A stretch of 64,000 nt of DNA from Antedon mediterranea. Its lineage: Eukaryota; Animalia; Echinodermata. The stretch covers positions 19,419,237 through 19,483,236 of the forward strand of contig NC_092672.1 in NCBI RefSeq assembly GCF_964355755.1, in the 5' to 3' direction. The notes under the pieces were generated by a model, which ran no database searches, was not told where the DNA came from, and was given only the letters and a program-made list of their open reading frames with translations. Positions 6,101 through 36,136 of this stretch are shown here, piece after piece; within the stretch, counting starts at the first letter, position 1; each line of letters opens with the position of its first letter. Position numbers and translations under genes: made by a program.

Positions 6101-9100
6101 GAATGTCACTGTTTTATTGATCTCATAGATCTTCATGGTATCTTTTGCTGTTGTATGCATAGTATTCAACCTTTGTGATGATCTTGATGCCCCAGCTAAA
6201 GTTTTGGATCCAACAACTGTAAGCTCACTTTTATTAGTTTTTAAACACTATTTTCAATTCCTATATTGTGATTACTTTATAGTGAAAAATGTATACCTCT
6301 GCTCTGAACACATCTTAAAGTTTTAAGACTTATCAATTAGCTTCTCACATCTTATCCATAGACAATTTAACACAAAACTACATTAATAAAGAAACATTCT
6401 TTTCCTGCATTACTCAATAAATGAATAACAATAGATTGAACAATTACATTTTTTTCAATTGTTGTATACAGTATTATACATGATCAAAGAAATTAAAATT
6501 GAGTGTTCTACAAACATTTTTTGTTATCATATGTACTTATAAAATTTAGGGTGAAAAGTATGACCACAGAATGACAAATCTGGAGTTCATTCTTTCTTGG
6601 ATTCGTTCCATATACACAAACAGTAGACCTGATGCAAAGATAAATGGTCAGCCTTGTCCTCCTGTATTATTGATAGGTACACATTTAAATGGTCTAAATA
6701 ATCAAAAGGTGAGTTGAAAGACTGTAGAGAAATGACTCTTTTGTAATAATCATTTTTTGATGGAATGGAAGATGGTGCCATGTTGTTGGATAATAATAGC
6801 TTTAAACAGTGATTAAGTGTCTCTTTTTTTCAGGTTAAAGAAATAAAATCTAAAATTTGGGAAGCCCTAAAAGACAAACCATATGAAACTATGGTGTGTT
6901 CAACTATTTTTACCATTGAAAACAGTGTACCATTTAAACAAAGCAATGCTTCTGCCATCATGAAACAAATACTGGATTTATCAAAGAAAATGATCCGCAC
7001 TTTGCCAATAAAATGGTTGCAAGTCCAGCAGGAAATCCAAATCTTGAAAAAGAAGCACATCTATTTACCAACTTTTGAGGTTAGGTGCAAGAATTAATAG
7101 AAAATAGCGTTCAATGTAAACAATTAATGAATTACCATATTAAAAATGTGGCAATTTCTTTTATAAAGAAAAATTCGCAAAAATAAGGTTTACAGTATTT
7201 GTTCTATTGTTCTATTAGTCAGATCTCAATTTTCAGTATACCACCATGTTATTTTCAGTTTACATTGTAATTGGTGTAAAATCCTAGTTAATACGGGTCT
7301 GAATAAAACAATTACTTGTAGTGAAGCTTTCAGTCAACTACCATTTTCACTAATAGATGTACTTTATATATAAAGTTAAATCTCTTTATAGTAGGTATTT
7401 ATTGTACTGTTACATTGTCATATTATTTGAAAATTTATGAAAGTATATTAATAAACTTTTCATTATAATTGTTTTACGTATGTTCATATCTATTTTTGAA
7501 CAGATCCAAGATGAAGTACTTAAAAAAATCTGTAAAGTAACAGACGGTCACAAAGAGTTGCTTGAGTATTTACATGACATTGGCGTGATCCTCTACTATC
7601 CAGATGACAAGGATCTAAGAGATATAATAGTTGTAGATTTGATGCGACTAGTTGACATGTTTAAAACAATCATCACTGTAATAGACCATGACGATATGGT
7701 TAGTAATTAACAAAAATGATGTTTTGCATACTGTGCAGCAACATAATATTACTGGCTTCTAAATTTAATTAAAAATAACTTTTGATAGAAAATAACTTCA
7801 CTAAACTTACAGGTACCCAATCATATGAACTCAAAGATCAATACTTTTTTTCAACTATAGGCCTACCAATGTTACTCTGAATTAATAAATTAAAATTTGA
7901 TTTTAATTGTATTCTATTTTTGTAAAATAATAGGTACCAGCTATGAGACCAGCTTGGAGGATGCTGGACCAAGGCATTTTAAAAGGTGGATTGCTAAAAC
8001 ATCTGTGGGAGAAGTTCTGTGATTCTGATGAGATATTATCATTCTTTGCGTCTCTCATGCAAAAGTTTGGATTAGTGTGTGAACAAATAAATTCAAAGGT
8101 ATTGATACTAATTTCATTAATATTTCAATTTTCTAGCCTATATATAGCCTACTGATCTACTTATTAAATTATTTTTTGTTTACACAGAATAATGAAAAAA
8201 TTTTCTACGTTCTGTCACGTTTGAAACCACATGCCTCACCACCACCTGGATTTGAAAAAAAGCGTGCAGTTTCTCTATTTCATGATTTTGGTAGCTATCT
8301 TCCAGATGATCTTTTCCAACGTGCTGCAACAAAGTTTATTGAGAAATTTCAAATGGAAGATAAAGAACCTGTTCTATCCTATGAGCATGTAGAATTGAAC
8401 ATTGATGCTGATCACCTAGTCATTCTATATGTTACTACCATTAAACAATGCCGTATGTTACAGGTAAATTTTACAATTAGTACCCTATTTTTAATGCAAT
8501 AATAAATTTACCCAAATTTACAATAAAATTACTTCGCAAACTAAAAATATTTTGCAGGAAATATGAATTTTGTGATTTAGTGTTGTGTAAATGCTGACAA
8601 TTTTGTGTAAAATTGCTACTATAATATGATGTTTAAAAAAAAAAATACATAAATACCAGATGTACTTTTGAAAGAAACATTTGTTGCGCAACGTAATCCT
8701 ACAGGAGCCAGTTTGGTTTTGAATTAAAAAAAAAATTGATGCTTCAGCTCATCCGATCATTGATGAAACACACTGTAGATTACGGAGGTTTGCCCATAAA
8801 AAAACCCATGCTGATGTCATTCTTTTGTTTGCATTAAATTTACCACTTGATCAGTCCAGAGAGACCATGTGACTTAATTGGTCCACACGAGTTCCACTGT
8901 GGGTATTTGCGTCCAACCATCAAATAGCCAGATTCCAAAAAAGCTCTGCCAATCACAGGAAAGCTCAGCTTTGATCGATGAAATCACACTACAAAACCAC
9001 CATTTTGTGGTGTGATTTCATCGATCAAAGCTGAGCTTTCCTGTGATTGGCAGAGCTTTTTTGGAATCTGGCTACCCACCCCTGAAAATTGTAATAAATA

Positions 9101-14899: not shown

Positions 14900-14944
14900 A
14901 TGAACAATCAAGAAGTGAAGCTGGACCATCAAGTAATACAGAAA
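14900..14944 (+). CDS. 45-nt phase 1-1 microexon (DEQSRSEAGPSSNTE)
   Basis: Polypyrimidine tract plus AG, GTATGT donor, in frame with the DED exon. Confidence 0.65.
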
Positions 14945-15462: not shown

Positions 15463-15507
15463 GTAAACGATCAAGAAGTGAAGCTGGACCATAAAGCAAT
15501 GCAGAAA
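15463..15507 (+). CDS. Duplicate of the 45-nt microexon with an in-frame TAA at 15492-15494 (terminal exon or pseudoexon)
   Basis: Shares exon, donor and about 55 bp of upstream intron with 14900-14944; TCA codon changed to TAA; AATAAA follows at about 15522. Confidence 0.6.
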
Positions 15508-16078: not shown

Positions 16079-16252
16079 AATTATCAGCCAGCAAAAACAA
16101 CAGTATCTGGATGGTGTGATGAACATTCCCAAAGAATTCTAAACAAGATGAAAATGGTAATCAGCGAGCTCATCATCAAGAGTAGGAGACAAGATGAATG
16201 AATCCATTAAGAAACTTGATGAAAAGAAAATGATTAATGAAGTTATGCATTG
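16079..16252 (+). pseudogene. Degenerate, internally deleted copy of the DED exon
   Basis: Acceptor tag|aa tta versus cag|aa ttg; VSGWCDEH versus VSTWWKKH; IKKLDEKKMINEV versus IKLLTERKMMKEV. Confidence 0.55.
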
Positions 16253-16350
16253 ATGATTTTAGATAATTGATATTTCCATTCCCTCAATGACCCAAGTTAG
16301 ACAACACAAACCAACAGTGGTGTTGGTAGTCCATGAGTGCAGCATACCTG

Positions 16351-16594
16351 CAGTGGCGTAACGCCTATGAACGCTCACTGGCTAAACCCAGGGGCCCCTT
16401 AGCAGTGCTTAGAGAGGAAAACGGGCATTCGAATATGCCGAAAAAAAAAGCTAAAAACGAGGCATACTGTGTTGGAACTTGGAGCTTGTGGGGGCCCCTT
16501 AGCAGTGCCCAGAGGAAATATGGGCTTCAAAATATGCCAAAAAAGGCTTAAAACATCCAAGACCTCCAGCGTTGGAACCTGGGTTATGCCACTG
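16351..16594. mobile_element. hAT-type MITE
   Basis: TIRs CAGTGGCGTAAC / GTTATGCCACTG; 8-bp target duplication catacctg / cttacctg. Confidence 0.8.
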
Positions 16595-17086
16595 CTTACC
16601 TGGATAGCCCCTCTCTCTCTCCGAAGAGAGGAAAATATTACAAGAAGAACTTCAACATAAAATAACTCCACCCGGTAATGGTATAGTTCATTCAACATTG
16701 CACTCTACTGAGACACACCTACCTCAGATTGTCATCATTTCTTTTAACACCGTTGTGTGTGTACATCAACAAGAAACGAACTGAAAAAGTGGAAAAAACA
16801 AAGATAACGAAGCTAAGTGCCGTACTCTGTTATCACGCTAGTGAAATATTTGAATTAGTACAGGCTTTGCTATCAGTGATTCGTTGAAAATCGATATGTT
16901 AGGGTGTTCCCTAAAATAGAAATTAAGAGATACGTTTCAAGCCGTTATTCTAGGCTAGAAAAAGACTAACTAGAATAGAAACCGATACGTTGAGATACGT
17001 TATCCTAATGTTACACTAGGATAGAAATAGGACTTTACTTCGTTAGGTATGTGTGTTAGGATCCGTAGGATGTTATAGTATCACCA

Positions 17087-17307
17087 AGTCTGAATGTGTT
17101 AAATGTAGGGGTCCCACCTCAGTGACCCAAGTTAGATCTTATCTTATGTTCTAGTACCCACCTAGTCTGAATGTGTTAATTGTAGGGGTCCCACCTCAGT
17201 GACCCAAGTTAGATCTTATCTTATGTTCTAGTACCCACCTAGTCTGAATATGTTAATTGTAGGGGTCCCACCTCAGTGACCCAAGTTAGATCTTATCTTA
17301 TGTTCTA
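17087..17307. repeat. 77-bp tandem repeat, about 2.9 copies
   Basis: Units start at 17087, 17164 and 17241. Confidence 0.9.
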
Positions 17308-19045
17308 ATCCTTCTGCAAGACATAAGTAATTTATTTTAGACTTTCTTGATTTACAATAATAATAATAGTAGGCATAACACTCGGAGGATTTTATAGGAT
17401 TTTGATAAACCATTCACATTGGATATTCCATAAATAGAAGTTAAATCTGCTCAACCATTGGAATAGGATAATTTTGGTGGTTTCGTGAATATGCTGTCAA
17501 CTTCAGTATTGAATTATCTTATGGCCGGATCTGTCCACTTATTTGTATAAAGTTATTTGCAAGGGAAGTTGGCTCAGGTTTTTTTTCATAAAGAGAGCCA
17601 GTTGAAATTTAATTCCCCACCATGGGGGCCGGGGGGTATTATTTTGGAGAATTGTTTCAACCATTGGTATGGGAGTATTTTGTTAGAAAACATCGCTGAA
17701 CCATTTACTATTGTTAAACAACTATTTGTTAAACAATAATCTAAAATATAATTAAATATATTTTAGATTATTGTTTAACAAATAATAAATGACGTCACAT
17801 GACTACTACTGCACATCCAGCTTTTTTTGTAGTTGAACCAACCTGTAGAGTGCGCCATCTGTTTTACTCAGCTGCCAAAATCTAAGTGCCACATTCTTAA
17901 ATAGCCTAGAGCCTTTTGACATTTGATTCAAGGTGGAAGTGACAGATAAAATACCTTTGGTTTTAAACATTTAAATAAAATGTTTGATTCATAATATAAA
18001 AACAAATACACTTTGGTTGCCTACTTAAGTTTCTATTTAAAACGATGGGTTGATCAGTGCTTCCAAATAGTAATAGCATTAGTGAATAGTACTTCTTTAG
18101 AGGTAAGTCTGCCCATAGTTTTAACCAGAAACTGTCAAGGCAAAGTATATTTGTTTACTATATCCTACACTCATATATTTTTTTTCGTGCAGATTTTTTT
18201 TGTATTTACAGTTTTGTAGGGCTACACATTTATATTGTATATTTATGCATCAAGATTTTAGAATTTCCCATCTTGTCAGTATATGTTTGTCTTGGATCAC
18301 ATGGGTCATATAGTTTGGAACCAAAGTACACTCAACTACATGTTACAATAGATATATTTGTATTTTACATATTTGATTTGATTATTATGTAACTCAAGTT
18401 ACTTTCCTCCTATTATCTCAAGTCTTATTTTTGTATTTACTTTTTTGTTTATTTCATGTTTTTTTTGTATATTTGTAAATTTGATTGCTATCAATAAATA
18501 AGGATAAAATACTTTATTTTTGTAAATTAAAGTGAAACAAATTATATATTGTGAATAGATTTTGTTTATGTTTTATCATGGTTTTGTATGACATAATTAT
18601 ATAACAAAAATACAATAAATTGTAAGAAGCAATGGAAACCAAGAAATTAATTGATAGTTTTACAGTTATAAAACAATGTTTAAAAAAAAATTGTAAAAAG
18701 TTGAAATATAAATTAATTTGCAATTTGTAAATGTTATAGGTATCCACCATTTACAAGATATATTATGCAAAAATTGAGGCCTGTTATCATTATGAAAACT
18801 CACAAATAATCACATCTGATAACTGACAATATTGACAATGATTGGTTGAAATAATGTATATTTACACACTTGTATTTTTACTTGTCATTAAGTCATTCAT
18901 TCATTTTTTTATATAAATAACTTAATCATCTTTTTTTTTAAACATTATGATTTACTGTATTATATCTCTAAAAAAAAAAATTTATATATCAAATATCAGA
19001 AATTATAATGTTTTACTCAAATATGAATGAAAGAAATAAATGTTT

Positions 19046-19080
19046 ATTTGATTTGATTTGATTTGATTTGATTTGATTTG
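19046..19080 (+). repeat. (ATTTG)n microsatellite, probably a LINE tail
   Basis: Seven ATTTG units after AATAAA and an AT-rich tract. Confidence 0.75.
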
Positions 19081-20711
19081 AGTCTTCTTTACCTCAATAT
19101 ATTTCATAATTAAACAGATATGCTTGAATTCTTTGTTTGCTTATCAACTTTTAGGTCTATTTATGGGATTTATGACATGTATTTATCTATGAATAGAAGG
19201 ATGTAAAATACAAATAAACAAACATTGAAAGGGAACACAACTAAAAGATACAACACAAAGTTACTGTATATTACAAATCATTGGTGGCGCTGTTGAAAAT
19301 AACTTTATAAAACACTTGATGGCATTATAGGCGTATAATATAGCCTTTGTTGCAATTAATCTAATAATCATTGATGAATTCACTCTCCTGACACTAAAGA
19401 GAAACTGTTACATACACACTCTTAAACAATTACACGTACTATGATAATTGTGCACACAGAAGCTTTGCTGTACACATACAGACAACTTGCACATTTAGAC
19501 ACATTGATCTAATTAACAAACAAAAAAAGGCAGAACTTTCACACCCTGGTCTATCAGTGCTAAAAAGTGTGTAAAATTGTAGGAATATGGACATCTAGAT
19601 GCCTGGAAATGGCACTCTAACACTAGAACGTTTTGTGTACAATGTTTTCTTTTTAAACCTACATCTCCATCCACCTCAGCCCCAATCATGGTTGGGGCCG
19701 GCTGACTGAACACAGATTGATGCTGTTTAAAAGAATTTTTATTACAATAATCATTTTTAATTTTGTAAGGCTGACCTCAATTCCTCCCACTATACTTTAC
19801 CCCTCTGTATTACTAAAGTTTTTTTTAATCTTAGTGGGATTAAGAACCCCATCTCGCCATCTATCAAAACCCCACCTCCCACCCCCAAAATCTTTCTGTT
19901 AGCTTTTTTATTCTTTTCTTTTTTTCATCCTTTAAAAAATAGGTAGAGGAAGCTGTATATTTTCTTAATCAGCTATTGGTGGTTTATTATGCTCAATTAT
20001 TTCCTTCCTTTATTTCCTCTCTGTAGAATAATGTCGCATACATCTCTTATAAAGAAACACAATATTACAAACCATAAAGTAAACATAAATCACCCAAAAT
20101 CGATTTAAACAATGTTTTGAACAATAAACATTATATCATTAAAAATTGTTAATAATTAAAGATGTATTGTCCCTTTGACTAATTCAAAAAAAATTTTTTT
20201 TTTTTAATTTTGAAAAAAGGGGGTCATTTTGAAGTATCATAATAGTTATTAACTTTCACCAAAAATTAGTCGGAAAAAAAAATATTTTAACCGAAATGCA
20301 GATGTTTTTTTGTTCCAAAAATAACTTTGACTTCCAGTCAAAATTTTCAATCAAAACATATCTCATAATGCAACGCGCTTGTTTGGCTACTCTGTATGCA
20401 TAATCATAAAACTTCCTCGCGATCTGTGTGAAAACACCTTCTCAACCGTGACGAGTTGTAAACAATCCTAATTAGCATCATGCATAACTCATGGTTTGAA
20501 ATCTTTGTTTACGTTCGCTTGCGACGATTTCCCAGACGAAATGTAATCTAATTAATTTACCTGTTAATGACGTAAACTTGTTGTTTTTGGCTCTAAATTT
20601 CGACTTAAAGTGAATAACTTTAATATTACTTTGATATGAAAGAATTTCATTTAGCTTCGATTTTGTATAGATGACAAATTTCGTTTTTGTAAAAGCACAA
20701 GTTAACGGAGT

Positions 20712-20760
20712 ACTTACTCGAACGTTTCGATCTCTATCAGAGATCCTTCTCAACTGACTG
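20712..20760 (-). ncRNA. Penelope-associated minimal hammerhead-ribozyme-like motif (variant core)
   Basis: Minus strand TTGAGAA-g-GATCTCT-gat-AGAGATC-GAAACGTT; stem I is not convincingly paired. Confidence 0.45.
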
Positions 20761-20917
20761 CGGAGTGTTAATGCAGCTTGGTCATTCTTGACGTCATCTG
20801 TTGATGATGTCGTACGCCTCCGGTTGAAGGTTGGAGGTTGTGCGGGGCTCGGCCAGGTGATGTGTCTATCAAATCATTGTACAAATGCGAGAGTTCGTGG
20901 GCTCCAGTGTCCCGGTT

Positions 20918-21820
20918 GCGATTTTTTTTTTCGTACATAAGTTGGGGACCCCCTCATGAAACGTCATAATATAAACATGAATAATTCATCAGTTAAATTT
21001 TCTTGTTCCGTGTGCACCCAAGCGTATAGCAACAAGAAGTGATTACACAAGTGCGGTACGATGTTTAGGCCTATCTCCGCTGTTGTTGCGGCGTGCGATT
21101 TCATAGAAAAATAGCGGCGTTTTGTGTGGATTTTTGAAATAATCAGCCTTTAGTTTATGGTGTTTTCAATATAATTTATTACTAAAGAATTACGTGTTAA
21201 AATTATAGTTTCAAATTCTATTAATACTATTAGGCCTAATTATTAGTCTCTAAACCCATGTCAATTCTAGTAGTAGCTGTGTGTGTGTGTGTGTGTGTTA
21301 GGTATGACACAATCCGAGTAAGTCAGCAAAATTAAAAAATAAACATTTTACACAAAAATACATTTTTTATTCTCGTGGGTTTAATCTTTCCATCTCATGT
21401 GTTCATATACGCGCATTTTTAAAGTTCCTTTGAGTACATGCATATTGTTTGATAATAAAATAGCAGAATTAAACAAATACAGTACACAAATTATACAAAT
21501 TCTTTATTCTTGTGGGTCTAAGCTTTATTTGGGCTATGTCCAATGAATTACTACTTAGTTTAATATGTCTTGCCTAGCTGTCGATTAGCCTCGACTCGAC
21601 ACATTTTGTGTGAAGAAGAGTGCGCGAAGGCAATCACGTGAATTGACTTAGAATCCTAGGCTACACTGTAGAAAGTATCGTATCGCAGTTGTGTAAATCA
21701 CTTCTTGTTGCTATACGCTTGGGTGCACACGGAACAACAAATTTAACTGATGAATTATTCATGTTTATTTTGTGACGTTCCATGAGGGGTCCCCAACTTA
21801 TGTACGAAAAAAAAAATCGC
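20918..21820. mobile_element. Non-autonomous Mutator-like (MULE) element
   Basis: About 145-bp TIRs starting GCGATTTTTTTTTT...CGTACATAAGTTGGGGACCCC; perfect 9-bp duplication GTCCCGGTT at 20909-20917 and 21821-21829. Confidence 0.88.
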
Positions 21821-23048
21821 GTCCCGGTTCATGGTCTTCTCCTTATTTCTCCTTATATGTAATGATTCTCTAATCTGTCTGTCTTTGCGTTTAGGCTCTT
21901 TGGTTAAGATGGTAGCCTCCCAGTTTGGTTTTTGTTTTATGACATGTTCTGTAATGGCAGATTTGTGTATGATCGAAGATGTGGATGTTCTGGAGGCCCT
22001 AGTCATTACTCCCCCCGTGTTTGTTGTAACATCTTTTTTGTGATCATTAATTCGTGTTTGTAATGCCAGGGAGATGTCTTTTGATTTGTGTAGGTCTGTT
22101 ACCATGTTTGTTTAAAACAATCAGGACTGACGATGGACAGCCAGGCCCATAAATAAAATAGGAAGAGGCTTAGGCCATCCCTAGACCTAACCGCAAAATA
22201 ATCAATTAAACTCCTAAAAATCAATCTAACACTAATAAACTGAACTTAAATAATCTTTTCTATATCAGTAAAATCGTGCGTAAACTAGTCAAAGCCCTAA
22301 AAACTGGGGCCTGTCGCGTTGGCCCGATCTTGGTAGCAGGCTACTTATCCATGTGTGGTATTGGTGTAACATAGTTGACATTTCGTTGGCGATTTTCAGG
22401 TTCACGCAATGTCAAATAAAACAGTGTAGTTTTGAAAAGAATTGATGTTAGTCTTATACTAGGCCTAATACTAAATTAATTAGATTATTTTACGGAAAAT
22501 ATATTTTTATTAAAATTATAATTTTAATCGCAGAAAATAAATTTTGGGGAGTTTAATATAATTAAAAAGCCTGATTGATAACAAAATAATTTCATCATCT
22601 TTTATTTTAACCTTGTGACATGCGATCGTGTTTTGAAACTAGGGTGGGTGTTTTCCAAAGTTATTTTAAGTGCGCATATATTGCTCACCACCGGCATCTG
22701 TGCTTATTTTTTTTTAAATACTTAATAATAGATAAAATACATTTTAATATATAATAATATAAAAATAAATATTATATAATATAATTTTTATTTATATGAA
22801 TTTTATTGCGTATTTATTTTAAAATACGCAAATATGCCTCTATTATTAGTCACAAAGGACAAGGAAGCCCGGGTCAAAAACACATTCACACGTCGTCCAC
22901 GATAAACACATTTTAAATTTAAAACAAAACGTAGTAATTATTGTAATTATTAATTGGTATAGGTCACATCTTTAAAATATAACTTTCCTATTAATTATCT
23001 TCTAATGAATTATTATTAAAATACAGTATACATGTCACATGTCGCCCT

Positions 23049-23271
23049 GCTAAACTAAACTTTATGAAAGGAGCTTTGCGCTGGCGTCTGTAAACTCTCC
23101 AGAGTCAGGAGAGTTAGCCTGCTAAACTTTACATTGGAAGAATAGGGATGGAGCTTTGCATCCGCAAACTCTCCAGAGTCACGAGAGAGTTAGCCTGCTA
23201 AACTTTACATTGGGAGAATAGGAAATGGAGCTTTGCGTCCGCAAACTCTCCGGAGTCACGAGAGAGAGTTA
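23049..23271. repeat. About 75-bp tandem repeat, 3 copies
   Basis: Recurring GCTAAACTTTAC...GGAGCTTTGC...AAACTCTCCAGAGTCA...GAGAGTTA. Confidence 0.8.
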
Positions 23272-25130
23272 AGCGCCATTTACACTAGATACGATAACGA
23301 CACGATAACGACACGAATGTCGTTGTCGTGTCGTCGTCGTAACAGGTCCGCGTTTACATTCGAACGATTTGGTAACGATTGTCGTGGAGGTGATGACGTT
23401 GACCGTGATACGCTTACTACGTTACTATGCAATGTTACAAATTGATAATTTGTAATTTATACAATAATGTTGCCAATTTTTTTTTAAAGATGGAGACTTA
23501 AACTTAAAATATTAGAATTTAGGTGCTCACATATTTATAAATTAGTTTTTGATTTTCGCAAATGTTAAGTTGCCACTTTATTTTGAATTTTAATTAAAAA
23601 TACTTGAGGTCACATAATCAATTAATTAATCAATCAATCAATAATGGCGGATAGTGATTCCAGTGACGATGAGATGCTTCTCCTATATGTTGCTTATCAA
23701 CAACATAAGAAAAGAAAAAGAGAATGGGTACACGACATTTACAAACATTGAAAAACGCACGGTTCATATCAAACTTTAAATATGTAATGAATTGGCGATA
23801 TTTGGCGACAAGTTTTACGAATATTTCCGAATGACAAAAGTCCAATTCGCCGAGCTATTAGCTTACATTGATTCGGACATCGGCAAAGAAAACACTCGTT
23901 TTCGTGAAAGCATATGTGCGAAAGAAAGACTTAGTATCTGTCTAAGGTAAGGAACGTATTCTAATCTCTAATAACTTTACTAATATATACGATTAACGTA
24001 GTTATATAGTTGTAGGCTTACAGTATTATATGCCCAATGTATGGGTAGTAGTAGGCCTACTATAGTAGTAATTAAAGTTATATATTAAAATAATTAGGAA
24101 TTAGGCCTATAATTGGATATTATAATAAGTTAATTTTGAATTATTAGGTTAAAGTTTTGTATTTTCTTGTTTTTTAATTTCTCGTCTTCACACGAGTGCC
24201 ACTGATATAAAAGTGCTGTTTCCAATAAAGATTATTATTATGATTATTACTATACAGTTATGGACTGCGAATACATTGTTTTTACATTCTTCTTACAGGT
24301 TTTTAGCAACTGGAGACTCATATGGCACATTAAGTTTTGAGTACCGTGTTTCAAAGGCCTCAATCTGCTATATAATCTCTGAGGTATGCGAATCCATTTG
24401 GAACAAGGCCAACAGCCATTAAGTCGCGTGCTACAATGCATAGTGATACCGGACCGACAGACAGACCGACAGACAGACCGACAGACCGACAGACAGACAG
24501 ACAGAGAGACCGACCGACCGACATAGTGAACTATACTGACCGAAATTACTGAACATGTTTAAAAATGTTGAAATGTTTAAAAACATTTATTTTTTTTAAA
24601 TTTACACGTGCGTAGCCTGTCACTTTCGACGTGCTCGTATAACGTAATTTCGAGTTGAAAAGTAAGTCAAGAAAACAGAAATCGGGCAAAAAGAGTGCGC
24701 AATAACATTTAACGCGCAGTGCGCGCGCAAAAATATGCGCACTCATGGCAATTTTGTAAACGCTTAAAATTGCCTGAAATGTACGTTGGAACGTCGGGTA
24801 CGTTGGAACTTTCCAAATGCAATCGGGGCCATAGACGGCAAACACGTTCAGATTCAAGCACCTGCGAACAGCGGTTCAATGTATTTTAACTATAAGGGAC
24901 ACTTTTCTCTTGTGCTTATGGCAATGATAGATGCCGAATATAACTTTATCTACGTAGATGTTGGTAACTACGGTTCCAATAGTGATGGAGGTATTTTCGC
25001 ACGAAGTACCCTATGTCAAGGACTTGACAAAGGACTCCTTGGCATTCCTCAACCAAGAGAACTTCCAGGTAGCCCCGACCTGGGGAGAATACCGCTGGTA
25101 GTTGTGGGGGATGAGGCTTTTCCTCTTATA
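23272..25130 (+). mobile_element. PIF/Harbinger transposon remnant with intron-containing DDE transposase (HARBI1-like), disrupted and 3'-truncated
   Basis: FYEYFRMTKVQF...ERLSICLR, intron 23947-24298, FLATGDSYGTLSFEYRVSK, then WNFPNAIGAIDGKHV, YFNYKG, SDGGIF and GDEAFPL. Confidence 0.9.
24402..24784 (-). mobile_element. Truncated Helentron/DINE-1-like element inside the Harbinger transposase
   Basis: Reverse complement of about 50060-50432, including the GTCY microsatellite and the terminus. Confidence 0.85.
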
Positions 25131-25943
25131 AATTTACTGAAAATAAAAGGTTTCTATTCAAAATAATTATACAAATTTAACTTTATTAAAACAGATCTCT
25201 ATGATTGATATAAAATCAAGTTTTAACTCTAGGATAGTTCTACAGTTGGCGTGTTTCTCAATCATTTTCTGGCATTTCATAAAAGTTTTCATAGTTTAGT
25301 TGAAAGGAAGAAAGGAACTTTAACTAGTTGAAAGAACACAATATCACCAACTATGCATGTCTCCTGTACCACAATACCAATTCTAAACAGTACTGTAATC
25401 AAACAGTATTAAACAAATATATGGTACAACAAGAGGAAAAAAGCTGAGTACAAGCGTGGAAGAAATATATATTTCCTCCATGGTACAAGAAAGCGTGTGC
25501 AAGGAATTTTGATTGGTGCTATTTCTAGTAGCCTACTAATAATTAAGAAAACTAGTCACTGACGTACATTTTAAAGTCCCAAACAAAGGCACTTGTTATA
25601 CATTTTACACAAAAGCCGATAAGTTTTTGAAAAACGTAAGAAAATTTGTAGAAAACTAAAAACCTCAATACCAAAAAAATTCACACACTGAAAAATGGCC
25701 ATTGTTTGGAAAAAACTCCCTGATTGATTAGTCAACCTAATTAAGTACCACTTAACAAAATACAAGTTCATTTTTATTGCACATTTGAGATGTGAGGAAG
25801 AATAAATAAAAATCTAAAACACACAATTAGTGCTATTTTCAAAACAACAATTCTGGGTGGCACAATTTTATTTTTCTAATACACCCTAAACTTGTACTAA
25901 AAAAATAATGTTCTATTTCAAACTTTATAGCCTATTAAATTAA

Positions 25944-26546
25944 AGACACCTTCCCTACAATTTGTGACGTTTTGTAAAAATAATACATATATATTACTTT
26001 AAAAACATTAAACCAGGTCATTCCTTGTCTTAAATGTACGTTTTATGGTAAATTATGATAAGAAGTGATAAACAATGTCACTATCTAAGTAGCTCGCCGC
26101 AACTAACCTCTCGTGGACGGTCATTAGGCCTAGTCTAGCTAGGCTTAGTTTTGTAGGCCTAGCTGGTAAACATCGGTAACGTACGAACATCGTACACTAG
26201 CTATATACCTAGCCTGCCGTTGTATAGTTGCTGCATTAATTGTCTTTCTATTTTTGCCAGACTCCGTTGATACAAATTGGGGAAAACCCGGTATTTTCGC
26301 TGCAAAGTTAGGAGTCGGTCAAAAAGTGGGTGAATTACAGAAGAAAAACAGAAATATCAATCCGCGCGCAATGCATTTTGGGATTTATAGCGGGCCGCTA
26401 TAATTATTAGAATCGACTTATTCTTCACATTTTTAACCATTTAAAGAGGAAAAAAGTTATCGCATTAGGACCATAATAGTATTATTATTACATTAAATAT
26501 AGTTTGTGATCTTAAAATAGATCTAAAAAACGGTGGGAAGGTGTCT
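25944..26546. mobile_element. Non-autonomous TTAA-target DNA transposon (Kolobok-like)
   Basis: TTAA|AGACACCTTCCC...GGGAAGGTGTCT|TTAA; close copy at 63012-63637. Confidence 0.85.
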
Positions 26547-27252
26547 TTAAAATTATCATTCAGCTTTTAATAATTCAGCTAGTTTGGGAAAATGTTGTAT
26601 GGATTGGTAGCAAAATTGATTTAAATTTGTTAAACAAGATTAATAAGGCATACTGATCATACCAAGGTTCATCAAGAACTAACAATAAATGAACAAATGA
26701 TAGCAAACTTTTGGGGAACATTTTATTACTCCTCATACAAAATACTTATTTTTAGTACACAGTTAACAGTGTGCTTGTAAATAAATTCTTTTTAATTCTT
26801 TGGCGTTTCATACCTGCTTATTTGTTCATATAACATTGCTAGAATCATTCTATTATTAACAATACAATTGATATCAATAGATAGAACGCATCATTCATAC
26901 GCATTGGCTGTACCTCGATACAATAACTGTTAATCTCTTAATTTAGAATGATAGCATAAAGCATACTGTTCATAGTATTGTACTGAGTTTATATGATCAA
27001 GAACTAAATCATAAATAAACAAATAATAGCAAACTTAAATTGGGTAACATTACTTTTACTCATGTCTGTGAAGTTGGTTACTAAGTTCCTAGGTACTTAT
27101 TCAAATTCAATTAAAGGGACAGTCACAAATGTTTTTAAAAACAGATTTTAATACGTAATAACTGTCTAATTGAGTTGTTTATTGCATCAACATGTTAGCT
27201 TTGACCTCCTCTACTTCTTCCGGTCAAAGTTCATTAACATTTTATTCATTTA

Positions 27253-27568
27253 CACCCTCTACGGCGAATAAGTAACTAGCTTTTACGAACGTTATAACAC
27301 TTGACCTACTTAATTTTTTCAAAATATTTTGGTATAAATCGATCACCCTTGACCTACTTTATCATTTGCCACCCCAGTTCCGCGAACTTTTGTGCATCTA
27401 CGCCCTCTACGGCGAATAAGTAACTGGCTTTACGAACGTTATAACACTTGACCTACTTAATTTTTTCAAAATGTTTTGGTATGGATCGATCACCCTTGAC
27501 CTACTTTACCATTTTCCACCCAGTTCCGCGAACTTTTTTGCATCTACGGCGAATAAGTAACTGGCTGT
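27253..27568. repeat. About 149-bp tandem duplication
   Basis: CTACGGCGAATAAGTAACT...CCCAGTTCCGCGAACTTTT occurs twice, plus the start of a third unit. Confidence 0.8.
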
Positions 27569-29353
27569 CTACAGTACATATACTCCCGAAAATAGCCAAT
27601 TGGACAGACTCCCTCACCCTTCCCATATGATCTCCCATCCCTATACACCTCTCCGCTGGCACCAACAATGTTGTAATATATTGTTATAACAGTACAAATG
27701 TAAATGAACTGATTTATTATTAGACACCGTAATCCTATGCATTAGACTGCGTTTTATATATTATAACAATAGGGATATATCTAGATACTTAAACATTTGT
27801 TTTTCGGCCATTTTCTAATTAACAGCACTTAAAATAATGTGTATATTGTAGTTCAGATCTTCGAAACTGTAAAGAAATATATAAACCATTGTAAAAACTG
27901 TTATAAAGTGGTAATTAGATCTATCATTTATGTTTTTTGTCTTTTTTTAGGCATTTTTCGCCATTGGCGGCCATTTTGTTTAAAAAAACCTATTTCCCCT
28001 ACCTGGATTTTTCTAGACTTTTAGTATGTTCATATTGGGACCTTATAGAAATGCATTGTGGTGAAATAAATTCTGTTGCATTTTTTTCAACCATATTTCA
28101 TAGTTTTCCTGTACTATAATTAATATGTTTTCAGGTAACAGTTGATATCATGAAATTTAAAAAATCCACATTAGTGCCTATTTCACCAAATTGTTTAGTT
28201 TGTGAGGTATAGACGGGTACTACAATATAGTTTTAAATATAAATATTACTGTATATTGTGTTTAAACGACTACTATCACTCAATGAATAGTGTGCGCTTT
28301 TTAATTGTTAATATTAACAGTAACAGTATTAATGAATAGGTTAATTTTGCTGTTATAAGGTAGTGTAAACTGTTTTTAAGTAACAGTTGCTGTAATGACA
28401 TTTGAAAAAAAAACATTAGTTCAGCTTTGTTTTTTTGTGCGCTTTTAGATGGGTACTGTAAGATGATGTCATTATAGGCCTATGTGGGTGATTTTAAATT
28501 CAGAGATTTGTTCAAACATTCTATGTCTATGTCACACAGCCGCAACTACGGCTCTTTCGGATATGTAATTCCTGGTAACTACCGGCAAACAACGATAAAT
28601 AGCCACAACTGTACACATAAAAATGTAAAAAGTAAATTTAATAATCTTTGACAAACAATTCTTTCTCTTATAATCCAAACCCCCCCCCCCCCCCAAAAAA
28701 AAAAAAACCACAAAAAAAACCAAGCAATTCCCAAACAATGATACAGTATCCCTATTCCCCACACAATTTATACCATTCCCCAAATTCCCAATCCTTCCAA
28801 ACAAAATATCAACCATCTTCTTAGTGTCAAATAAATCCCAGAAACACCCCTTTCACATCCAATACTATCCCAAGGTCAATAATTAAACAAATAATAAAGG
28901 TCCACAATTTCGTCACTTCTTGTCTTCTTCTATCTCAATGCTGACACAAAACAAATTAGAAAGATAAAAGTTAATTATTAAAGAAGCGGAAATTTTATGA
29001 TAATCATCAGTGTCTGCTAATGAACATATATTATCTTGCAAGTTACTTTGACAGTTAATACTAATATTTGTATATTGTATGACACTGCTGTGTAATCTAT
29101 TCAACTTGCAGTACAATGTGGTTAAATAAACTCATCACTAAACCATTGATTGGAAAAGATAAGGTTTAGAATACTTGAATATTGCATTGGAAATACTTTT
29201 TCTTTTAACAAAAAAAGTTATAGTTGGTAATGACCTGTCATTCTGCTCTATATACTCAGCCTGCCTCCATCTGTCTTTAAAATTAAAATTAAGATTATGG
29301 TTATGATATTGAATGAAACTGTTGAATTGTGTATTATTATTTTATCACAACAG

Positions 29354-32300
29354 AACCAGTCTCTGAAGAAAAACTTGAGAGACCAGAAATTCCTAAAGGG
29401 TTCAGGAACAAATTTGTAAGCAAACTTCGCTCTGCAAGAGAAGGTGGTGACTCTAAAATGGATAGCAACAAGTTTGTTATGAACATCTGGGACTTTGGTG
29501 GTCAACCAATTTACCATGTGATACAACGGGTACATTTTATTGGTGTATTTAATTTTTATTAATAGAGATTAGTTTGCCGTCAATATTTAATATACATGCC
29601 TCCATCTGAGGTTGTGAACATTTACTTTGTCTTTTGGCCTTGTTACAATATCAGCACTGAAATCAAAAAGCTTGCTCACTCACAAAGATAAAATACATTT
29701 GGAATATCAGAATTTCGGTATGCCAGCCAAAGGGTGTCCAGTTTTGAGAGACTTTAAGTAAAATAGTATTCATTGATGTCTACCATAATGTAATATTAGC
29801 CTAGATGGATAACAAAGAGGGAGAGAGAGAGAGGAAGAATGGAATAAAACATTCATTATATATTAAACCAATGATTAAGATTGTAAATGTTTCCAAGGTG
29901 AACATGCACTTTGTGAGGAAAATAAAAGTATCAAATAATCAGTTCGTTGTGCCAGTATCTGACACATGTGTATAAACAGTTTGTAATATTGACTATTATG
30001 ATTATGTTTACTAGATATTCATGGTATCTTATGCTGTTGTATGTGTGGTATTCAACCTGAATGAAGGTCTTAATGCCCCAGCTAAAGTTCGTGATCCAAC
30101 AACTGTAAGTAGATTTTACAAATTTCAAATGTTTATGTAATTGTACATAAATAAAATGTTTCCTTCAAGTTATTCTTTACCTTAACACAAACTGTGCCAA
30201 TAGCAGATGCCTGATATATGATTGTTGTTATTTCCACTTCTATGATAGTGTTGTTAATAGCAGATGCCTGATATATGATTGTTGTTATTTCCACTTCCAT
30301 GAAAGTGTTGTTAATAGCAGATGCCTGATATATGATTGTTGTTAATTCCACTTCCATGATAGTGTTGTTAATAGCAGATGCCTGATATATGATTGTTGTT
30401 AATTCCACTTCCATGATAGTGTTGTTAATAGCAGATGCCTGATATAATATGATTGTTGTTAATTCCACTTCCATGATAGTGTTGTTAATAGCAGATGCCT
30501 GATATATGATTGTTGTTAATTCCACTTCCATGATAGTGTTGTTAATAGCAGATGCCTGATATATTTATTTTAGGTAAAGGAAATAGAAAATATACTTTGG
30601 AAAGCTCTGGAAGGAAAACCATTTGAAGACATGGTGTATCAAGGAGAGCTCTTTACTATTGAAAACAGTGTCCCATTTGAAAAGAGCGGTGCTTCTAAAA
30701 TCATTCTCCAAATACAAAAATTAGTCCAGATGATGATTCTTACTTTTCCAATTAAATGGCTGCAAGTACTGCTGGATATACAACAGTTACGAAAAGCCAA
30801 ACTATATCTACCAACTTCTGAGGTTAGAATAAAAATATCTTTAACAAATCGATTGATGAATGTGTCTTTTAATGTTTAACATCCATTACATTTGAAGCAT
30901 TAAACCCTGTTTTCTGAGTATTGCGTTGCATTGAATGGTGTTAATTAAAGTGAAAAAAAAGCAAACTCTTTTCATTACATTTGAAATTGTGTGGGATACA
31001 AGTTTGTTATTGATAGTAATATAACAGTAATCCCTGCTTTTCTGTCTGTGTTAATTGACTGTTTATGTTGAATCTTCAACAAATGTTTATCAAACAGGAA
31101 CGGTGCAATTTTAGTAGAGTACCAAGTACCAAAACAAAAGGAACATTTTTTGTCCTCTAATAATTATTGAAGTAAGTGGTGAACCTTGAGTTTACTGTTG
31201 GTTGGGAAAATTTCAGAATTCAAATCTATCCTTGCATGATAAAGTATTATGTCCTATATAAACAACCTTTCAACAACGAAATAAATGATAACATCAACAG
31301 AAAACCAGTTTGTAATTAATCAACATTTTTTTTTTCATTATGATATTTATTTACCATTTTAGATTAATGACTTACTTGCTCGGTGTAAGATAACTGACAG
31401 AAAACTGTTTCTTGAGTACTTGCACGACATCGGCGAAATTCTGTTCTACCCAGATGACAAGATCTTCAAAGAAAAAATTGTTATAGATTTGATGGGAGTA
31501 GTTGACAAGTTTAAAACAATCATCACAGTTATAGATCCCAGCATTCAGGTTATCAAACTTCACTTCTTTGAGTGGTGTCAATCATTGGTGAATATCAGAC
31601 GTAAACATTGTGGTAATTTTTTTTTAGTGTGATGGATTTAGCTGTAAAAATGTAATATCTGCCACACAGAGAATGAAATTATACCTTATTAATTCTATTA
31701 TATTCTAATACTAAAATATGTATTTTTAAACATATTACTGTACCACTCCCATTAAGAGAAGACCCAACAAAGTGTCTCCTTAATAGAGGTTAGCTATGGT
31801 GTTAATCTGCCTCTCATTTATTTCACAAGTAAGTTTTAATAAGGTTTAAGGGAAGACCCAACAAAGTGTCCCCTTAATAGAGGTTAGCTATGGTGTTAAT
31901 CTGCCTCTCATTCATTTCACAAGTAAGTTTTAATAAGGTTTAAGGGAAGACCCACCAAAGTGTCCCCTTAATAGAGGTTAGCCATAGTGTTATCTGCCTC
32001 TCATTCATTTCCCAAGTAAGTTTTAATAAGGTTTAAGGGAAGACCCAACAAAGTGTCCCCTTAATAGAGGTTAGTCGTGGTATTAATCTGCCTCTCATTC
32101 ATTTCACAAGTAAGCTTCAATAAGCTTTTCCCAAAGGAGAGATTCTACTGAATCTACTTTTGTGCTTTTATGCTTTTTAGCCATCTCTGAAACAGCTTTG
32201 GAGAAATTTAAATCGGGGCAAACTAGATGAAAGACTGTTGCAGCATATTTGGAAGGATGAGTCAGATGAGATGATTATCTTCTTTGTGTCTCTCATGCAA

Positions 32301-35300
32301 ACCTTTGGGTTAATGTGTGAAAAAAGGAGTCAAGAGGTATTTACATTTTATTTAACATTTTAGTTTAATTATTTGTTCATATATTCTATCTAGGACTCGT
32401 GTTCCATTTTTGTTTCTACAGAATGTTGGACGAATGTTCTATGTTCTTTCACGCCTAAAGCCCCAACGTGATGATACAAAGGCTGCTGAATATGAAGAGA
32501 AGCATGCTATTTCTCTCTTTCATGACTTTGATGGCTACCTTCCAGATGATCTCTTCCAACGTGTTGCAACTAAATTTATTGAGGAATTTCAAATGGAAGA
32601 TGTTGAGCCTACATTGTCTTATGAGCATGTAGAACTGAATGTTGATGGCCATCATCTTGTGCTTCTAAATGTTGCTACTATTAACAACCGTCGTTTGTTC
32701 CAGGTAAAATAATAATAAATAGTTTTATTCAATTCTACTCAAAAGTCTATTATTTCGACCAAAAAACAATGAGGTAAAACAACAATAATGACAAATAATG
32801 GATGACGGCAGAATCCAATGAAGATGAAAATCTTGATAGACAAGTTAATTATATGGACTTTTAGATTAGAGTAAAAATGTTTAAAGGATTGATATGTTTT
32901 TTTTGTAATTGCAGACAACAATTGTCAGAACGACAATCATGAAAACAGAATCAGGAAGCAGCTCTCCTGAAGATGATGATCCACAACCTAGCATCTGTAA
33001 GAAGGTAAGCCAGTATCAAACATTCTACACTTTATTTAGAATAACCTCCAACTTGTTGCTTTTACATCTTTCACAAGCATAATTCTATTTACACAATTAG
33101 CCATTAGAAATACTGATATATGCCTCTTAATTTGTTCCTTTTTAATTGTTATTGCATTACTGTTACAACTTTATTTATTTTTCAGGTGCTTAGTTTCCTT
33201 CAAAAAGAATTAGACTTTTTGAGTGAGAAGAATGCACATGGTGTTAAAGTAAAGATGTACATCCCTTGTGTGTGTGCTTCAAAAGGTGAACCTACTCATA
33301 TGCATGTTGTACGCAAATTTGACAAAGATGTGTTGCCATGTGGAAGCAGAGGAATGGAAGTGAAACGTTACCATAATCTGTTTGGAGACAATGTCCTATC
33401 AAAGGGTAAATTATTATTATTATTATGAAGCCTAGGTAGGATGTTGACGAAAAATGAATAATATAATACAATCTTGCAATAATGCAATGTTATTTTTCTC
33501 TAGGGTAAAACTACAAAATCACTTTAACGGATTTGTATAAATTTAACACAAAAAATGAACACATACCAATATTTGTTCCTTTCCAAAATGTCAGATATAT
33601 GTGTATATATCAAGTAACTTATAGTATTATGCCCTAAATAATGCTGGTTTCAACTGATAGATGTATTTTTGGGCAAAGTTCATTTCTCTATTTGTTACTA
33701 TGCCTTGAGACCCTTGTTGTAAATGTATGTATCATTTGTGTCTGTACACATTAGAAGCTAGATAAAATTAAAAGATTTACAGTAGTACGCATTTTTTATG
33801 ATTTTCAATTCATAGTGAAAGCCTAAATATCTGTTATTATTTAACCTTCTTTTTTCCAGAGGAGTCCATTGAAGACAAGTATGTGAATAACATTGGTAAA
33901 TATGACTTTTACAGATACAGACGTATTTCGTATCATAATATATTGAATACACTTCTACTAGTAAGCAACTACTACATAGGCATTGGATAGAATATTAAAA
34001 ATCTATATGCAATTCTTATAGGATTTTTATATTTTTACATCTGTTATTGAAATAGAATTAATATCACTTTCATAGCATACACTGTTAGTACCTCTAGTTG
34101 ATGAGGAATATGATACCACTCAATGTAAATGGCATAATTGTTTCAAAATATTACTTCTTCTTTGTACATATGACAATATAGTATTGTTTACACATTAGTA
34201 CAGCAATTAGTACATTCTGGAAGACTTGATTGAACCTTATTTTTGTATTATTATATGTAGCCTTAATATTGCTTATTATGTTTTAAAAACATTGTTTGTT
34301 TGAACTTTTGAGACAGATCCATGTAAAAATAATAAAAAGAAAATTTAAAAATGTTTTTTTTTTAAATCATAGACTATGTGGATGACCTTACTATTGAAAG
34401 TGTGTCTACAGAGATGGATCTTTCCTGTAGACGATTTGGTGTTCGTTTGGGGCTTACATGGTCTACAGTGAATACTATATTTGATAATGAAAAGCAGACA
34501 GATAAAGCTACAGCAAACATGCTGAAACGTTGGAGAAGCAGCATTGGTAGTGACTTTAATCAGCAACAAGTATTGTGCACCGCACTAAGGCATCATGATC
34601 GTAATGATCTTGCTGATCTGCTGTTTCAGAAATACATTGACGATGAAATACCCAAGGTTATCAAACCTTCAGGTATATAGCATTATATTGTGATTCCTGC
34701 CATTAAATAGTATAAAAATAATGAATGTTTATAAGTACAATGGCACAAATAATTTATGAGGTGAAAATATATAAAATTTTCATCTTTCACCTAAGAAAAT
34801 ATTTTTACTATTTTTACCTTTAGTTTTAATGAAAGGAAAGGCCTAAATCATTCAAATGGTTGATCCAACGTGGTCATTCAACTACAACCTAGCCTCTTGT
34901 AACTTGTGGTTGCTCACTCACCGTGTAACAAAAACAAACATGCAAAAACTAAATTTCAGTGCTCTTGTGCACATATATCAACATTGCACTCTCAATGACG
35001 TCATTAAAAGAGCAATAGCACATTTTAATAAAAAATAACTCACAATTCTCCAAATGGATTAAGAATCTTCTTAGGTGTGTTATAAAGGTTGTGTCGGTTT
35101 ATTTAATTTATTCAGATATTGTTTGTATTAATATTTTTATTTAAATTTGTTAATTGACACAAAATTATGTTTATTTTCTATGGACAAATGATTCCAAAAT
35201 AAAAGATTGAATGGAATTGTGAGTTGAATTTTAATTGAAACAGAACTCATTATCTTAACGCCTTTATTATTTCACAGCTCGTTTTGATGATCAAGATCTA

Positions 35301-36136
35301 CTGTTCATCTGTGACAATTTAGGTCAACATTGGAGAAGATTAGCAGTGCGCCTTGGAATTAAATGGGATGTTATCAGTAATATCACAGGTAAAAACAGAC
35401 ATGATGAAGATGACATAATGGTAGTCCTGGTTAAGTGGAGAGGTAGACAAAGAGCAGCACATCAAATACCTACAATGATCAAGGCTTTAAAACAACAAGG
35501 ACGTGTTGATTTAGCTGATAGCCTGTGTACAAGACATGAATACAAAGATGACGTCAGTTCAGAAGTTCCAATGTTTACAGACCAATCAGGACAAGGTGGG
35601 TAACGCTTATTATTCTTAATATGTTATTGTAACTATATACCTGATTATATTTTTTTTATTTACTTTTTATAAGATTGTTGAGAGATGGACAAACATGATT
35701 AAATATTACATTTTGTTTTTCAAATGTTTTAACATTTGAAAAACAAAATGTAGCCTATAGGCATATTGGAGGATTTTTTTAATTCAAATATTAAAATTGT
35801 TGTTTTCATTATTAATAATTGTATATAACATACACGATCAAAATTGTTTTAATTAAATGTATTTTTACAGGATGCTTAACAGACTTGGACTTCCTGATAA
35901 TTTCTCTGAAAATGACAGAATGGAAGAGTTTTTGCAGGGGTCTTGGTATTGCTGATGTTGAACTATCACAAAATGAGAGAAAATATTTCATGCTTACTGT
36001 AGAAGCAACTATGGAATCACTGGTACAATGGCGATGTAAGCAAGGAAGAGATGTGAACCAACGAGAGGAAGTAATAAAAGCCTTAAGAGCAGTTGAGAGA
36101 ATGGATATTGTACAATTACTAGAAACAGTCTATTGA
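29354..36136 (+). CDS. ROCO-family paralog B: partial Roc - COR - three death domains; no G1, G2 or G4 exon found
   Basis: In-frame GT-AG exons 29354-29529 (MNIWDFGGQPIYHVIQR), 30015-30104, 30574-30822, 31363-31548 (LEYLHDIGEILFY), 32181-32336, 32422-32703, 32915-33004, 33186-33405, probable microexon 33860-33895, 34373-34672, 35278-35595, 35871-36136 (TGA); intron positions and phases match paralog A; AATAAA at about 36185 and 36238. Confidence 0.88.
30199..30563. repeat. 57-bp minisatellite, about 6.4 copies
   Basis: Unit AATAGCAGATGCCTGATATATGATTGTTGTTAATTCCACTTCCATGATAGTGTTGTT; ends about 10 bp before exon 30574. Confidence 0.95.
31758..32125. repeat. 94-bp tandem repeat, about 4 copies (probably MITE-derived)
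   Basis: GAAGACCCAACAAAGTGTCCCCTTAATAGAGGTTAG at about 31758, 31852, 31946 and 32039. Confidence 0.9.
34373..34672 (+). CDS. Death domain 1 exon of paralog B (phase 1-1)
   Basis: RRFGVRLGLTWSTV...NMLKRWR...LCTALRHHDRNDLAD death-domain pattern. Confidence 0.85.
35278..35595 (+). CDS. Death domain 2 exon of paralog B (phase 1-1)
   Basis: LGQHWRRLAVRLGIKWDVI...VLVKWR...MIKALKQQGRVDLAD. Confidence 0.88.
35871..36136 (+). CDS. Death domain 3, terminal exon of paralog B
   Basis: EWKSFCRGLGIADVEL...SLVQWR...VIKALRAVERMDIV followed by TGA. Confidence 0.88.

What the first reader, a model, noticed from the sequence alone, without database searches (positions are those of the whole stretch)
16300..33405. 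Paralog B is open and diverged but appears to lack the nucleotide-binding exons: pseudo-GTPase decoy or alternative 3' cassette of A
Seen: B starts at the G3 (WDFGGQ) exon with a phase-1 acceptor. I found no P-loop, switch-I or 4261-type exon in 16.3-29.3 kb, and the G4 exon is absent. All remaining exons are free of stops and frameshifts despite clear divergence from A. Because phases match, A exon 4464 to 29354, A's G4 exon 6708 to 30574, or microexon 14944 to 29354 would each be in frame. Inference: (i) one gene with a shared 5' half and mutually exclusive COR plus death-fold cassettes, (ii) a GTPase-dead COR-DD3 adaptor, or (iii) recent deletion or misassembly.
Basis: partly seen in the sequence, partly recalled or inferred. 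Interest (0 to 1): 0.72.

Follow-up and report, generated by a model that had tools for sequence, protein, structure and literature searches.

The report
Young truncated copy of Roco gene
This feather-star gene lacks the exons for its GTP-binding switch but is about 96% identical to sister genes that keep them, so it is likely a recent, partly deleted duplicate of the kind expected in fast-turnover gene clusters, not an established decoy protein.

Summary
B (12 exons, 29354-36136) is an open 788-codon COR plus three-death-domain frame. No P-loop, switch-I, insert or ankyrin exon lies in 16.2-29.35 kb, and the G4 exon is missing.

The interpretation rests on the wrong comparator. By RefSeq matches the window is crinoid (Antedon mediterranea). 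B is 58% identical to A but 95.8-96.9% identical to three sisters that keep G4, one also the P-loop. Its intron pieces differ by about 2% from sister DNA. An open frame is therefore unsurprising (neutral P(no break) 0.12-0.38, or 0.02-0.14 on a looser count).

The G4 loss looks like a genomic deletion with a 3-base microhomology; no listed contig bridges the junction. Three of six G-domain strands are gone, so B is not a pseudoGTPase. Phase matches to A carry no information (81 of 156 arbitrary pairs match), and A has its own stop.

Best reading: a young truncated duplicate in a birth-and-death Roco cluster (0.65). An expressed GTPase-less COR-DD3 regulator is not excluded (0.18). The scan noted this family elsewhere in the genome and a 5'-less Roco relic in a shark, but not this locus.

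The parts
29354..29529 (+). B exon 1: end of the Roc insert, beta3 and G3 (WDFGGQ); phase-1 acceptor; B-private ATG at 29458 (Val in sisters)
30015..30104 (+). B exon 2: Roc beta4 exon
30199..30564 (.). 57-bp tandem array (6.4 copies), also present in sister introns
30562..30573 (+). Inferred G4-exon deletion junction: an array unit joined to the last 12 nt of the next intron, with 3 bases shared (30562-30564)
   Evidence: loose ends at 30252, 30543 and 30562 and record 7; sequence. No bridging contig among the listed pieces
30574..30822 (+). B exon 3: G5 region and start of COR
31363..31548 (+). B exon 4: COR-A
   Evidence: (PF16095, E 2e-4)
32181..32336 (+). B exon 5: COR-A
   Evidence: (PF16095, E 2e-4)
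32422..32703 (+). B exon 6: C-terminal COR half; RefSeq XP_071944292.1 starts at Met 32434
32915..33004 (+). B exon 7: COR
33186..33405 (+). B exon 8: end of COR
33860..33895 (+). B exon 9: 36-nt linker exon
34373..34672 (+). B exon 10: death domain 1
   Evidence: PF00531, E 3e-9
35278..35595 (+). B exon 11: death domain 2
   Evidence: PF00531, E 5e-11
35871..36136 (+). B exon 12: death domain 3 and stop codon
   Evidence: (PF00531, E 7e-7)
16200..29353 (.). Interval between A and B: repeats and transposon pieces, no Roco 5' exon; similarity to sister introns from at least about 29.0 kb
6550..6708 (+). Gene A G4 exon (the exon type B lacks)
4261..4464 (+). Gene A Roc-insert exon (phase-1 donor)
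15463..15494 (+). Gene A last coding micro-exon with its own stop (TAA 15492-15494)
   Evidence: (spliced A tail identical to XP_071944699.1)

Best explanation
B is a Roco gene copy that lacks its P-loop, switch-I, insert and G4 exons and is about 96% identical to sisters that keep them, so it is likely a young duplicate truncated by genomic deletion or partial copying, predicted to be unable to fold a GTPase domain and likely still open only because too little time has passed. Shown: exon content, open frame, nearest relatives, near-identical introns. Inferred mechanism: ectopic recombination in a cluster of near-identical genes placed a copy without its 5' part (ankyrin, death domain, G1, G2) behind gene A, or removed that part afterwards. 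A separate microhomology-type deletion running from the 57-bp array to the end of the next intron removed the G4 exon. Any protein made would be COR plus three death domains with an unstructured Roc remnant. No evidence here shows that such a product is selected.
For: B is 96.9, 96.1 and 95.8% identical to P0002, P0028 and P0026, against 43% overall to A. P0026 has Pfam Roc, COR-A and three death domains, and its predicted model matches RocCOR structure 3DPU best (E 1e-13). In the tree of 33 of 55 rows (rows with under 250 aligned residues left out), B is a tip of 0.019 inside a 100/100 clade with stem 0.44, next to rows that carry G1, G3 and G4. Of 82 fetched proteins, 39 hold both G3 and G5, and none of the 39 lacks G4. 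Eight hand-picked X1 contig pieces over B introns differ at 36 of 1773 bases (2.0%). A sister model that reads through an intron matches B's intron translation at 30 of 31 residues. Sister contigs continue past the array into sequence B lacks and carry other sequence before 30562. Spliced contigs of run X8 (RNA is a guess) join exon-2-like sequence to a G4 exon, and a G4 exon to exon 3. Only 7 residues are private to B. Expected disabling changes under neutrality are 1.0-2.1, P(none) 0.12-0.38. Partial models are common: 7 of 33 B-type RefSeq models hold G1, G3, G4, G5 and the C-terminal COR motif. Ectocarpus ROCO loci show the same turnover, with at least half disrupted (PMC3341825, passages).
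Against: Counting all 14 residues where B differs from its three closest sisters, P(no disabling change) falls to 0.02-0.14 (the indel rate is my assumption). In the three exons laid at high resolution, the four sites where same-sample contigs show mostly or only the other base are all synonymous. Against two private missense changes in those exons, this hints at constraint on B's branch (table shows 40 of 97 rows). That constraint could date from before the loss. RefSeq does annotate a 499-aa protein at B. B has gained a private ATG in a good start context in its first exon. A second Roc-less model exists on another chromosome (P0038/P0008). Partial RefSeq models may be annotation splits rather than real truncations, so the 7 of 33 count overstates decay. 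The 5' breakpoint was not located.
Confidence: 0.65

Rival explanations
1. B is transcribed from a new start and makes a GTPase-less COR-DD3 protein that pairs with full-length sisters through its C-terminal COR half, or offers its three death domains without nucleotide control, acting as a dominant-negative or constitutive adaptor.
For: Open 788-codon frame with GT-AG sites, and a RefSeq model of the last 499 aa. Private ATG at 29458. Synonymous excess in a partial table. The C-terminal COR half is the dimer interface in C. tepidum Roco (PMC6337361, passages). Other Roc-less or Roc-broken models exist: P0038/P0008, where the last ankyrin exon joins the G5 exon, and Anneissia P0053.
Against: Every Roc-less row is a short tip beside intact sisters, and no old Roc-less clade appears in the tree. 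The Roc remnant exons, which would be useless in a decoy, are about as intact as the COR and death-domain exons (52/58, 29/30 and 81/83 to the best sister), as recent loss predicts. Private changes hit positions invariant in all 15 aligned relatives (E156D, L206F). No promoter or 5' exon was identified.
Confidence: 0.18
2. The missing exons are an assembly error, so the real gene is whole.
For: The region is a cluster of 96-99% identical copies with tandem arrays. No listed contig bridges the junction at 30562 (32 of 861 pieces shown). The 5' boundary lies among transposon pieces.
Against: The G4 junction joins an array unit to non-repeat intron sequence with only 3 shared bases, which repeat collapse would not give (inference). 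The array is only 366 bp. Two separate losses would have to be artefacts. B carries private residues along its whole length (positions 35 to 740), so it is a distinct copy.
Confidence: 0.1
3. A and B are one gene with a shared 5' half and alternative COR plus death-fold cassettes; for example, A's G4 donor (6708) splices to 30574 and gives a complete Roc with B's COR-DD3.
For: The joins 4464-29354, 6708-30574 and 14944-29354 are in phase. B has no 5' exons of its own nearby.
Against: Phase agreement holds for 52% of arbitrary pairs and all homologous pairs. A's spliced tail and stop equal its RefSeq protein, whose cluster has one member. B belongs to a sub-family with its own ankyrin-death-domain-Roc 5' halves. 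The 6708-30574 splice would skip about 24 kb holding A's nine remaining coding exons and two B exons. The 4464-29354 product would still lack G4.
Confidence: 0.05

Closest known systems
Ectocarpus ROCO clusters with pseudogenes and deleted exons (PMC3341825, passages; PMC11378527, passages)
   Same: Clustered Roco genes with rapid birth and death. Loci missing conserved exons are classed there as pseudogenes, and at least half of the loci are disrupted.
   Different: Those genes are LRR-Roc-COR. Here the sub-family is ankyrin-death domain-Roc-COR-(death domain)3, and B keeps an open frame with no stop or frameshift.
Roco proteins (C. tepidum RocCOR 3DPU; LRRK1/2; DAPK1) (PMC6337361, passages; fold search)
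   Same: B's intact sister P0026 folds as a Roc-COR tandem; B keeps G3, G5 and the whole COR.
   Different: B lacks G1, G2 and G4 and three of the six core strands of Roc; it has no kinase or LRR.
Class i pseudoGTPases such as the AAGAB N-terminal domain (PMC12490416, passages)
   Same: Would be unable to bind or hydrolyse GTP.
   Different: PseudoGTPases keep the six-stranded GTPase fold with eroded motifs and are conserved. B has lost whole exons of the fold, and the loss is recent.
Antedon mediterranea B-type Roco models XP_071945880.1, XP_071944704.1, XP_071945874.1 (P0026, P0002, P0028)
   Same: 95.8-96.9% amino-acid identity, the same COR-DD3 tail, near-identical introns.
   Different: All three keep the G4 exon; P0026 also keeps the P-loop and switch I.

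Membership tests
Roco proteins (Roc-COR tandem) | Complete Roc GTPase domain (G1-G5) | tested here: not met
   G3 and G5 present; G1, G2 and G4 absent
Roco proteins (Roc-COR tandem) | COR domain following Roc | tested here: met
   Pfam COR-A hits on exons 4 and 5, below the curated cut-off as single exons; 96% identity to P0026, which passes the cut-off and matches 3DPU by fold
Roco proteins (Roc-COR tandem) | Descent from Roco genes | tested here: met
   Nested among G1-G5-bearing rows, clade support 100/100
PseudoGTPases | Retains the G-domain fold (six-stranded sheet) without nucleotide binding | tested here: not met
   On the predicted model of sister P0026 (mean pLDDT 70.8), the missing exons cover residues 1-190 and 277-329, i.e. 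strands 54-61, 91-97 and 308-314 and helices 67-74 and 286-300. B itself was not folded; the strand names beta1, beta2, beta5 are my assignment
PseudoGTPases | Expressed and conserved as a catalytically dead protein | tested here: inconclusive
   No old Roc-less clade; no B-specific RNA evidence obtainable
Truncated duplicate / incipient pseudogene | Missing conserved exons relative to intact close paralogs | tested here: met
Truncated duplicate / incipient pseudogene | Stops, frameshifts or broken splice sites | tested here: not met
   None in 12 exons; 1.0-2.1 expected under neutrality, or 1.9-4.2 on the looser count
Truncated duplicate / incipient pseudogene | Neutral evolution since the loss, or no transcription | not testable with these tools
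   Sister DNA and B-specific RNA were not available; the partial difference table hints at constraint of unknown date
Mutually exclusive 3' cassette gene | Transcripts joining shared 5' exons to either cassette | tested here: inconclusive
   No such protein among 82 fetched; the joint table showed only 15 of 341 rows, none A-to-B

The most novel reading that the evidence does not exclude
Crinoid Roco clusters repeatedly spawn expressed, switch-less COR-DD3 proteins (B here, P0038/P0008 on another chromosome). These dimerise with full-length sisters through COR and tune death-domain signalling, making them natural dominant-negative regulators of a Roco GTPase sensor family.
Probability: 0.15. 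Interest if true: 0.62.

Novelty: new member of a known kind. Interest (0 to 1): 0.2.

Why it matters
On the best reading this is ordinary turnover debris in an expanded Roco cluster. It shows how fast the family recombines (introns about 2% apart, a mosaic exon, many partial models), and it warns that an open frame must be judged against the nearest paralog, not the neighbouring gene. If the switch-less products were expressed and selected, they would be a natural test of whether COR dimerisation alone can regulate Roco proteins, a question that bears on LRRK2 and DAPK1. My five literature searches (20 of 38, 20 of 141, 10 of 25, 15 of 2,096 and 8 of 8 listings seen) showed no paper on crinoid Roco genes or on natural Roc-less COR-death-domain proteins. 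The library is limited to open-licence papers.

Tried and rejected
No whole genome is held for this window, so sister loci could not be read as DNA, and no B-versus-sister dN/dS or exact 5' breakpoint could be obtained.

Sequencing runs: no RNA holder listed. All six runs laid were contigs. The 20-kb lay was swamped by transposons and showed 15 of 341 joints, none A-to-B, so it is uninformative on option (i). The 1.9-kb lay listed four joints, none 30104-30574, and no listed piece bridging 30562. Neither absence is evidence about expression or assembly. Contig depth was not used as copy number.

A-versus-B dN/dS is 0.36 (dS 0.85). I rejected it as a test of B's status because it measures old branches shared with intact sisters. 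RefSeq's start of B at Met 32434 was not taken as evidence of a short transcript, since such models are often split: three sister models end by reading into the intron after exon 2.

Pfam found nothing in 12 ORFs, 11 of them between 15.6 and 28.9 kb. One weak tblastn hit at 28411-28500 (minus strand, E 0.014) came from a non-Roc N-terminal stretch of an Anneissia model and was not pursued. Supplements of papers were not read.
Full report
What was checked. I read the whole window, listed open frames, ran a self-comparison and motif scans and built exon models. Gene A occupies 104-15494 in the window. Its spliced translation equals the tail of RefSeq XP_071944699.1 of the feather star Antedon mediterranea (P0016), whose P-loop exon lies upstream of the window. 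Gene B has 12 GT-AG exons from 29354 to 36136 and gives 788 codons without a stop; the last 499 equal RefSeq XP_071944292.1. Pfam finds a Roc fragment on exon 1, COR-A on exons 4-5 and a death domain on each of exons 10-12.

The missing exons are really missing. No GxxxxGK[ST] occurs in any frame. I searched 16200-29353 and 30105-30573 on both strands with 11 pieces of A and of B's nearest relatives (ankyrin, N-terminal death domain, P-loop, switch I, insert, G4). None exceeded the best of 30 shuffles in the 13-kb interval, while the sister queries found A's much more diverged switch-I, insert and G4 exons. The interval holds repeats and a DDE_Tnp_4 transposase piece.

A is the wrong comparator. 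Three homology searches and three cluster look-ups returned 82 proteins, all but one named as Antedon mediterranea or Anneissia japonica. B is 57.6% identical to A over 460 shared codons, but 96.9, 96.1 and 95.8% identical to P0002, P0028 and P0026. All three keep the G4 exon, and P0026 keeps the P-loop and switch I. In a tree of the G5-COR region (33 of 55 rows long enough), B is a tip of 0.019 inside a 100/100 clade whose stem is 0.44. Of the 82 proteins, 39 hold both G3 and G5, and none of them lacks G4. The introns are young too. Eight hand-picked contig pieces from run X1 differ from B at 36 of 1773 bases, and a sister model that reads through an intron matches B's intron translation at 30 of 31 residues. 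B's first exon looks mosaic: residues 1-16 match P0054 (15/16) and residues 17-56 match P0004 (39/40), a sign of recombination between copies (inference).

The G4 loss looks like a genomic deletion. In B, a unit of the 57-bp array (30199-30564) runs straight into the last 12 bases of the intron before exon 3. Sister contigs instead leave the array into further sequence that B lacks (loose ends at 30252 and 30543) and carry different sequence before 30562, at least 328 bases in one contig. The two sides share three bases (30562-30564). That pattern fits a microhomology-type deletion better than a collapsed repeat (inference). No listed contig bridges the junction (32 of 861 pieces shown), so it is not confirmed from reads. 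Spliced contigs in run X8 (RNA is a guess) join an exon-2-like exon to a G4 exon and a G4 exon to exon 3, so sisters are spliced with G4.

Is the open frame surprising? Seven residues are private to B among all fetched relatives; 14 differ from the three closest. Under neutrality, seven missense changes imply about 10 substitutions and 1.0-2.1 disabling events, so P(none) is 0.12-0.38. With 14 it is 0.02-0.14. The indel rates of 0.05-0.2 per substitution are assumed. If the losses came late on B's branch the test is weaker still. Against my reading: four exonic sites where same-sample contigs show mostly or only the other base are all synonymous, against two private missense changes in the same exons (partial table, 40 of 97 rows). 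B has also gained an ATG at 29458 in a good start context. The Roc remnant exons are as intact as the COR and death-domain exons, which fits constraint that ended recently better than selection on a decoy. A-versus-B dN/dS (0.36) says nothing about B's present state.

Not a pseudoGTPase. An AlphaFold2 model of the intact sister P0026 (38-row alignment, mean pLDDT 70.8, pTM 0.49) matches RocCOR 3DPU best (E 1e-13). The exons B lacks map to residues 1-190 and 277-329, removing three of six core strands and two helices. PseudoGTPases keep the fold (PMC12490416, passages). A B product would be a COR-DD3 protein with a remnant. Because the C-terminal COR half is the dimer interface in C. tepidum Roco (PMC6337361, passages), such a product could in principle pair with sisters; this is untested.

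The cassette idea. The three joins are in phase, but so are 9 of 9 homologous and 81 of 156 arbitrary A-donor/B-acceptor pairs. A has its own stop at 15492-15494, its cluster has one member, and B-type genes carry their own ankyrin-death-domain 5' halves. The reads could not test the joins.

Family context. Of 33 B-type RefSeq models on two chromosomes, 7 hold G1, G3, G4, G5 and the C-terminal COR motif; many of the rest may be annotation splits. P0038/P0008 join the last ankyrin exon directly to the G5 exon, and Anneissia P0053 has an internal Roc-to-COR deletion. All Roc-less rows in the tree are short tips beside intact sisters. This matches the birth-and-death pattern described for Ectocarpus ROCO genes, where at least half of the loci are disrupted and loci missing conserved exons are classed as pseudogenes (PMC3341825, passages; PMC11378527, passages). 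PMC8195603 (passages) describes death-fold expansions in marine invertebrates but not these genes. An immune role for the family is an analogy, not tested here. Earlier scan notes on this genome's ankyrin-Roco genes gave the lead to PMC3341825; none covers this locus.

Verdict. Odds: young truncated duplicate 0.65, expressed switch-less adaptor 0.18, assembly error 0.10, alternative cassette of A 0.05. Novelty: new member of a known kind. Interest 0.2.

Noticed in passing
window 46737-46862, 54086-54148, 54927-55000, 62031-62128 (+): Candidate 5' exons of a third gene, the last an ankyrin repeat (PF00023, E 7e-8). It may be the start of another ankyrin-Roco gene; not shown.
   Followed up: partly
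window 14826-14953 and 15389-15516: Duplicated block (85% identical) giving gene A two 45-nt micro-exons; the second carries the stop in A's frame.
   Followed up: partly
window 14184-14738 and P0016 residues 62-250: Gene A's RefSeq protein carries a second copy (85% identical) of its C-terminal helical exon near its N-terminus. No Pfam hit for the exon.
   Followed up: no
window 9704-9806: Internal duplication of about 60 nt within A's last COR exon, in frame.
   Followed up: no
window 12385-13345 (+): Reverse-transcriptase retroelement fragment in an intron of A (RVT_1, E 4e-13).
   Followed up: no
window 23640-25163 (+): Broken DDE_Tnp_4 transposase, interrupted by an element (24402-24784) that has a 93% inverted copy at 50062-50432.
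   Followed up: no
window 38112-40061: 78-bp tandem array, 25 copies, 97% matches.
   Followed up: no
P0079 and P0001 (XP_071944756.1, XP_071944757.1): Models with consecutive accessions that end at the exon before G4 and start inside the exon after it; this sister locus may share B's G4 deletion. DNA not available.
   Followed up: partly
P0038/P0008 (XP_071950038.1, XP_071950039.1) and P0053 (Anneissia): Other Roc-less or Roc-broken COR-death-domain models: last ankyrin exon joined to the G5 exon, and an internal deletion from before G4 into COR.
   Followed up: partly
P0044 and P0052: Relatives with unusual N-termini: CBP-type KIX/TAZ Pfam domains on P0044 (already noted by the scan) and PF00656, recalled as the caspase domain, on P0052.
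   Followed up: no
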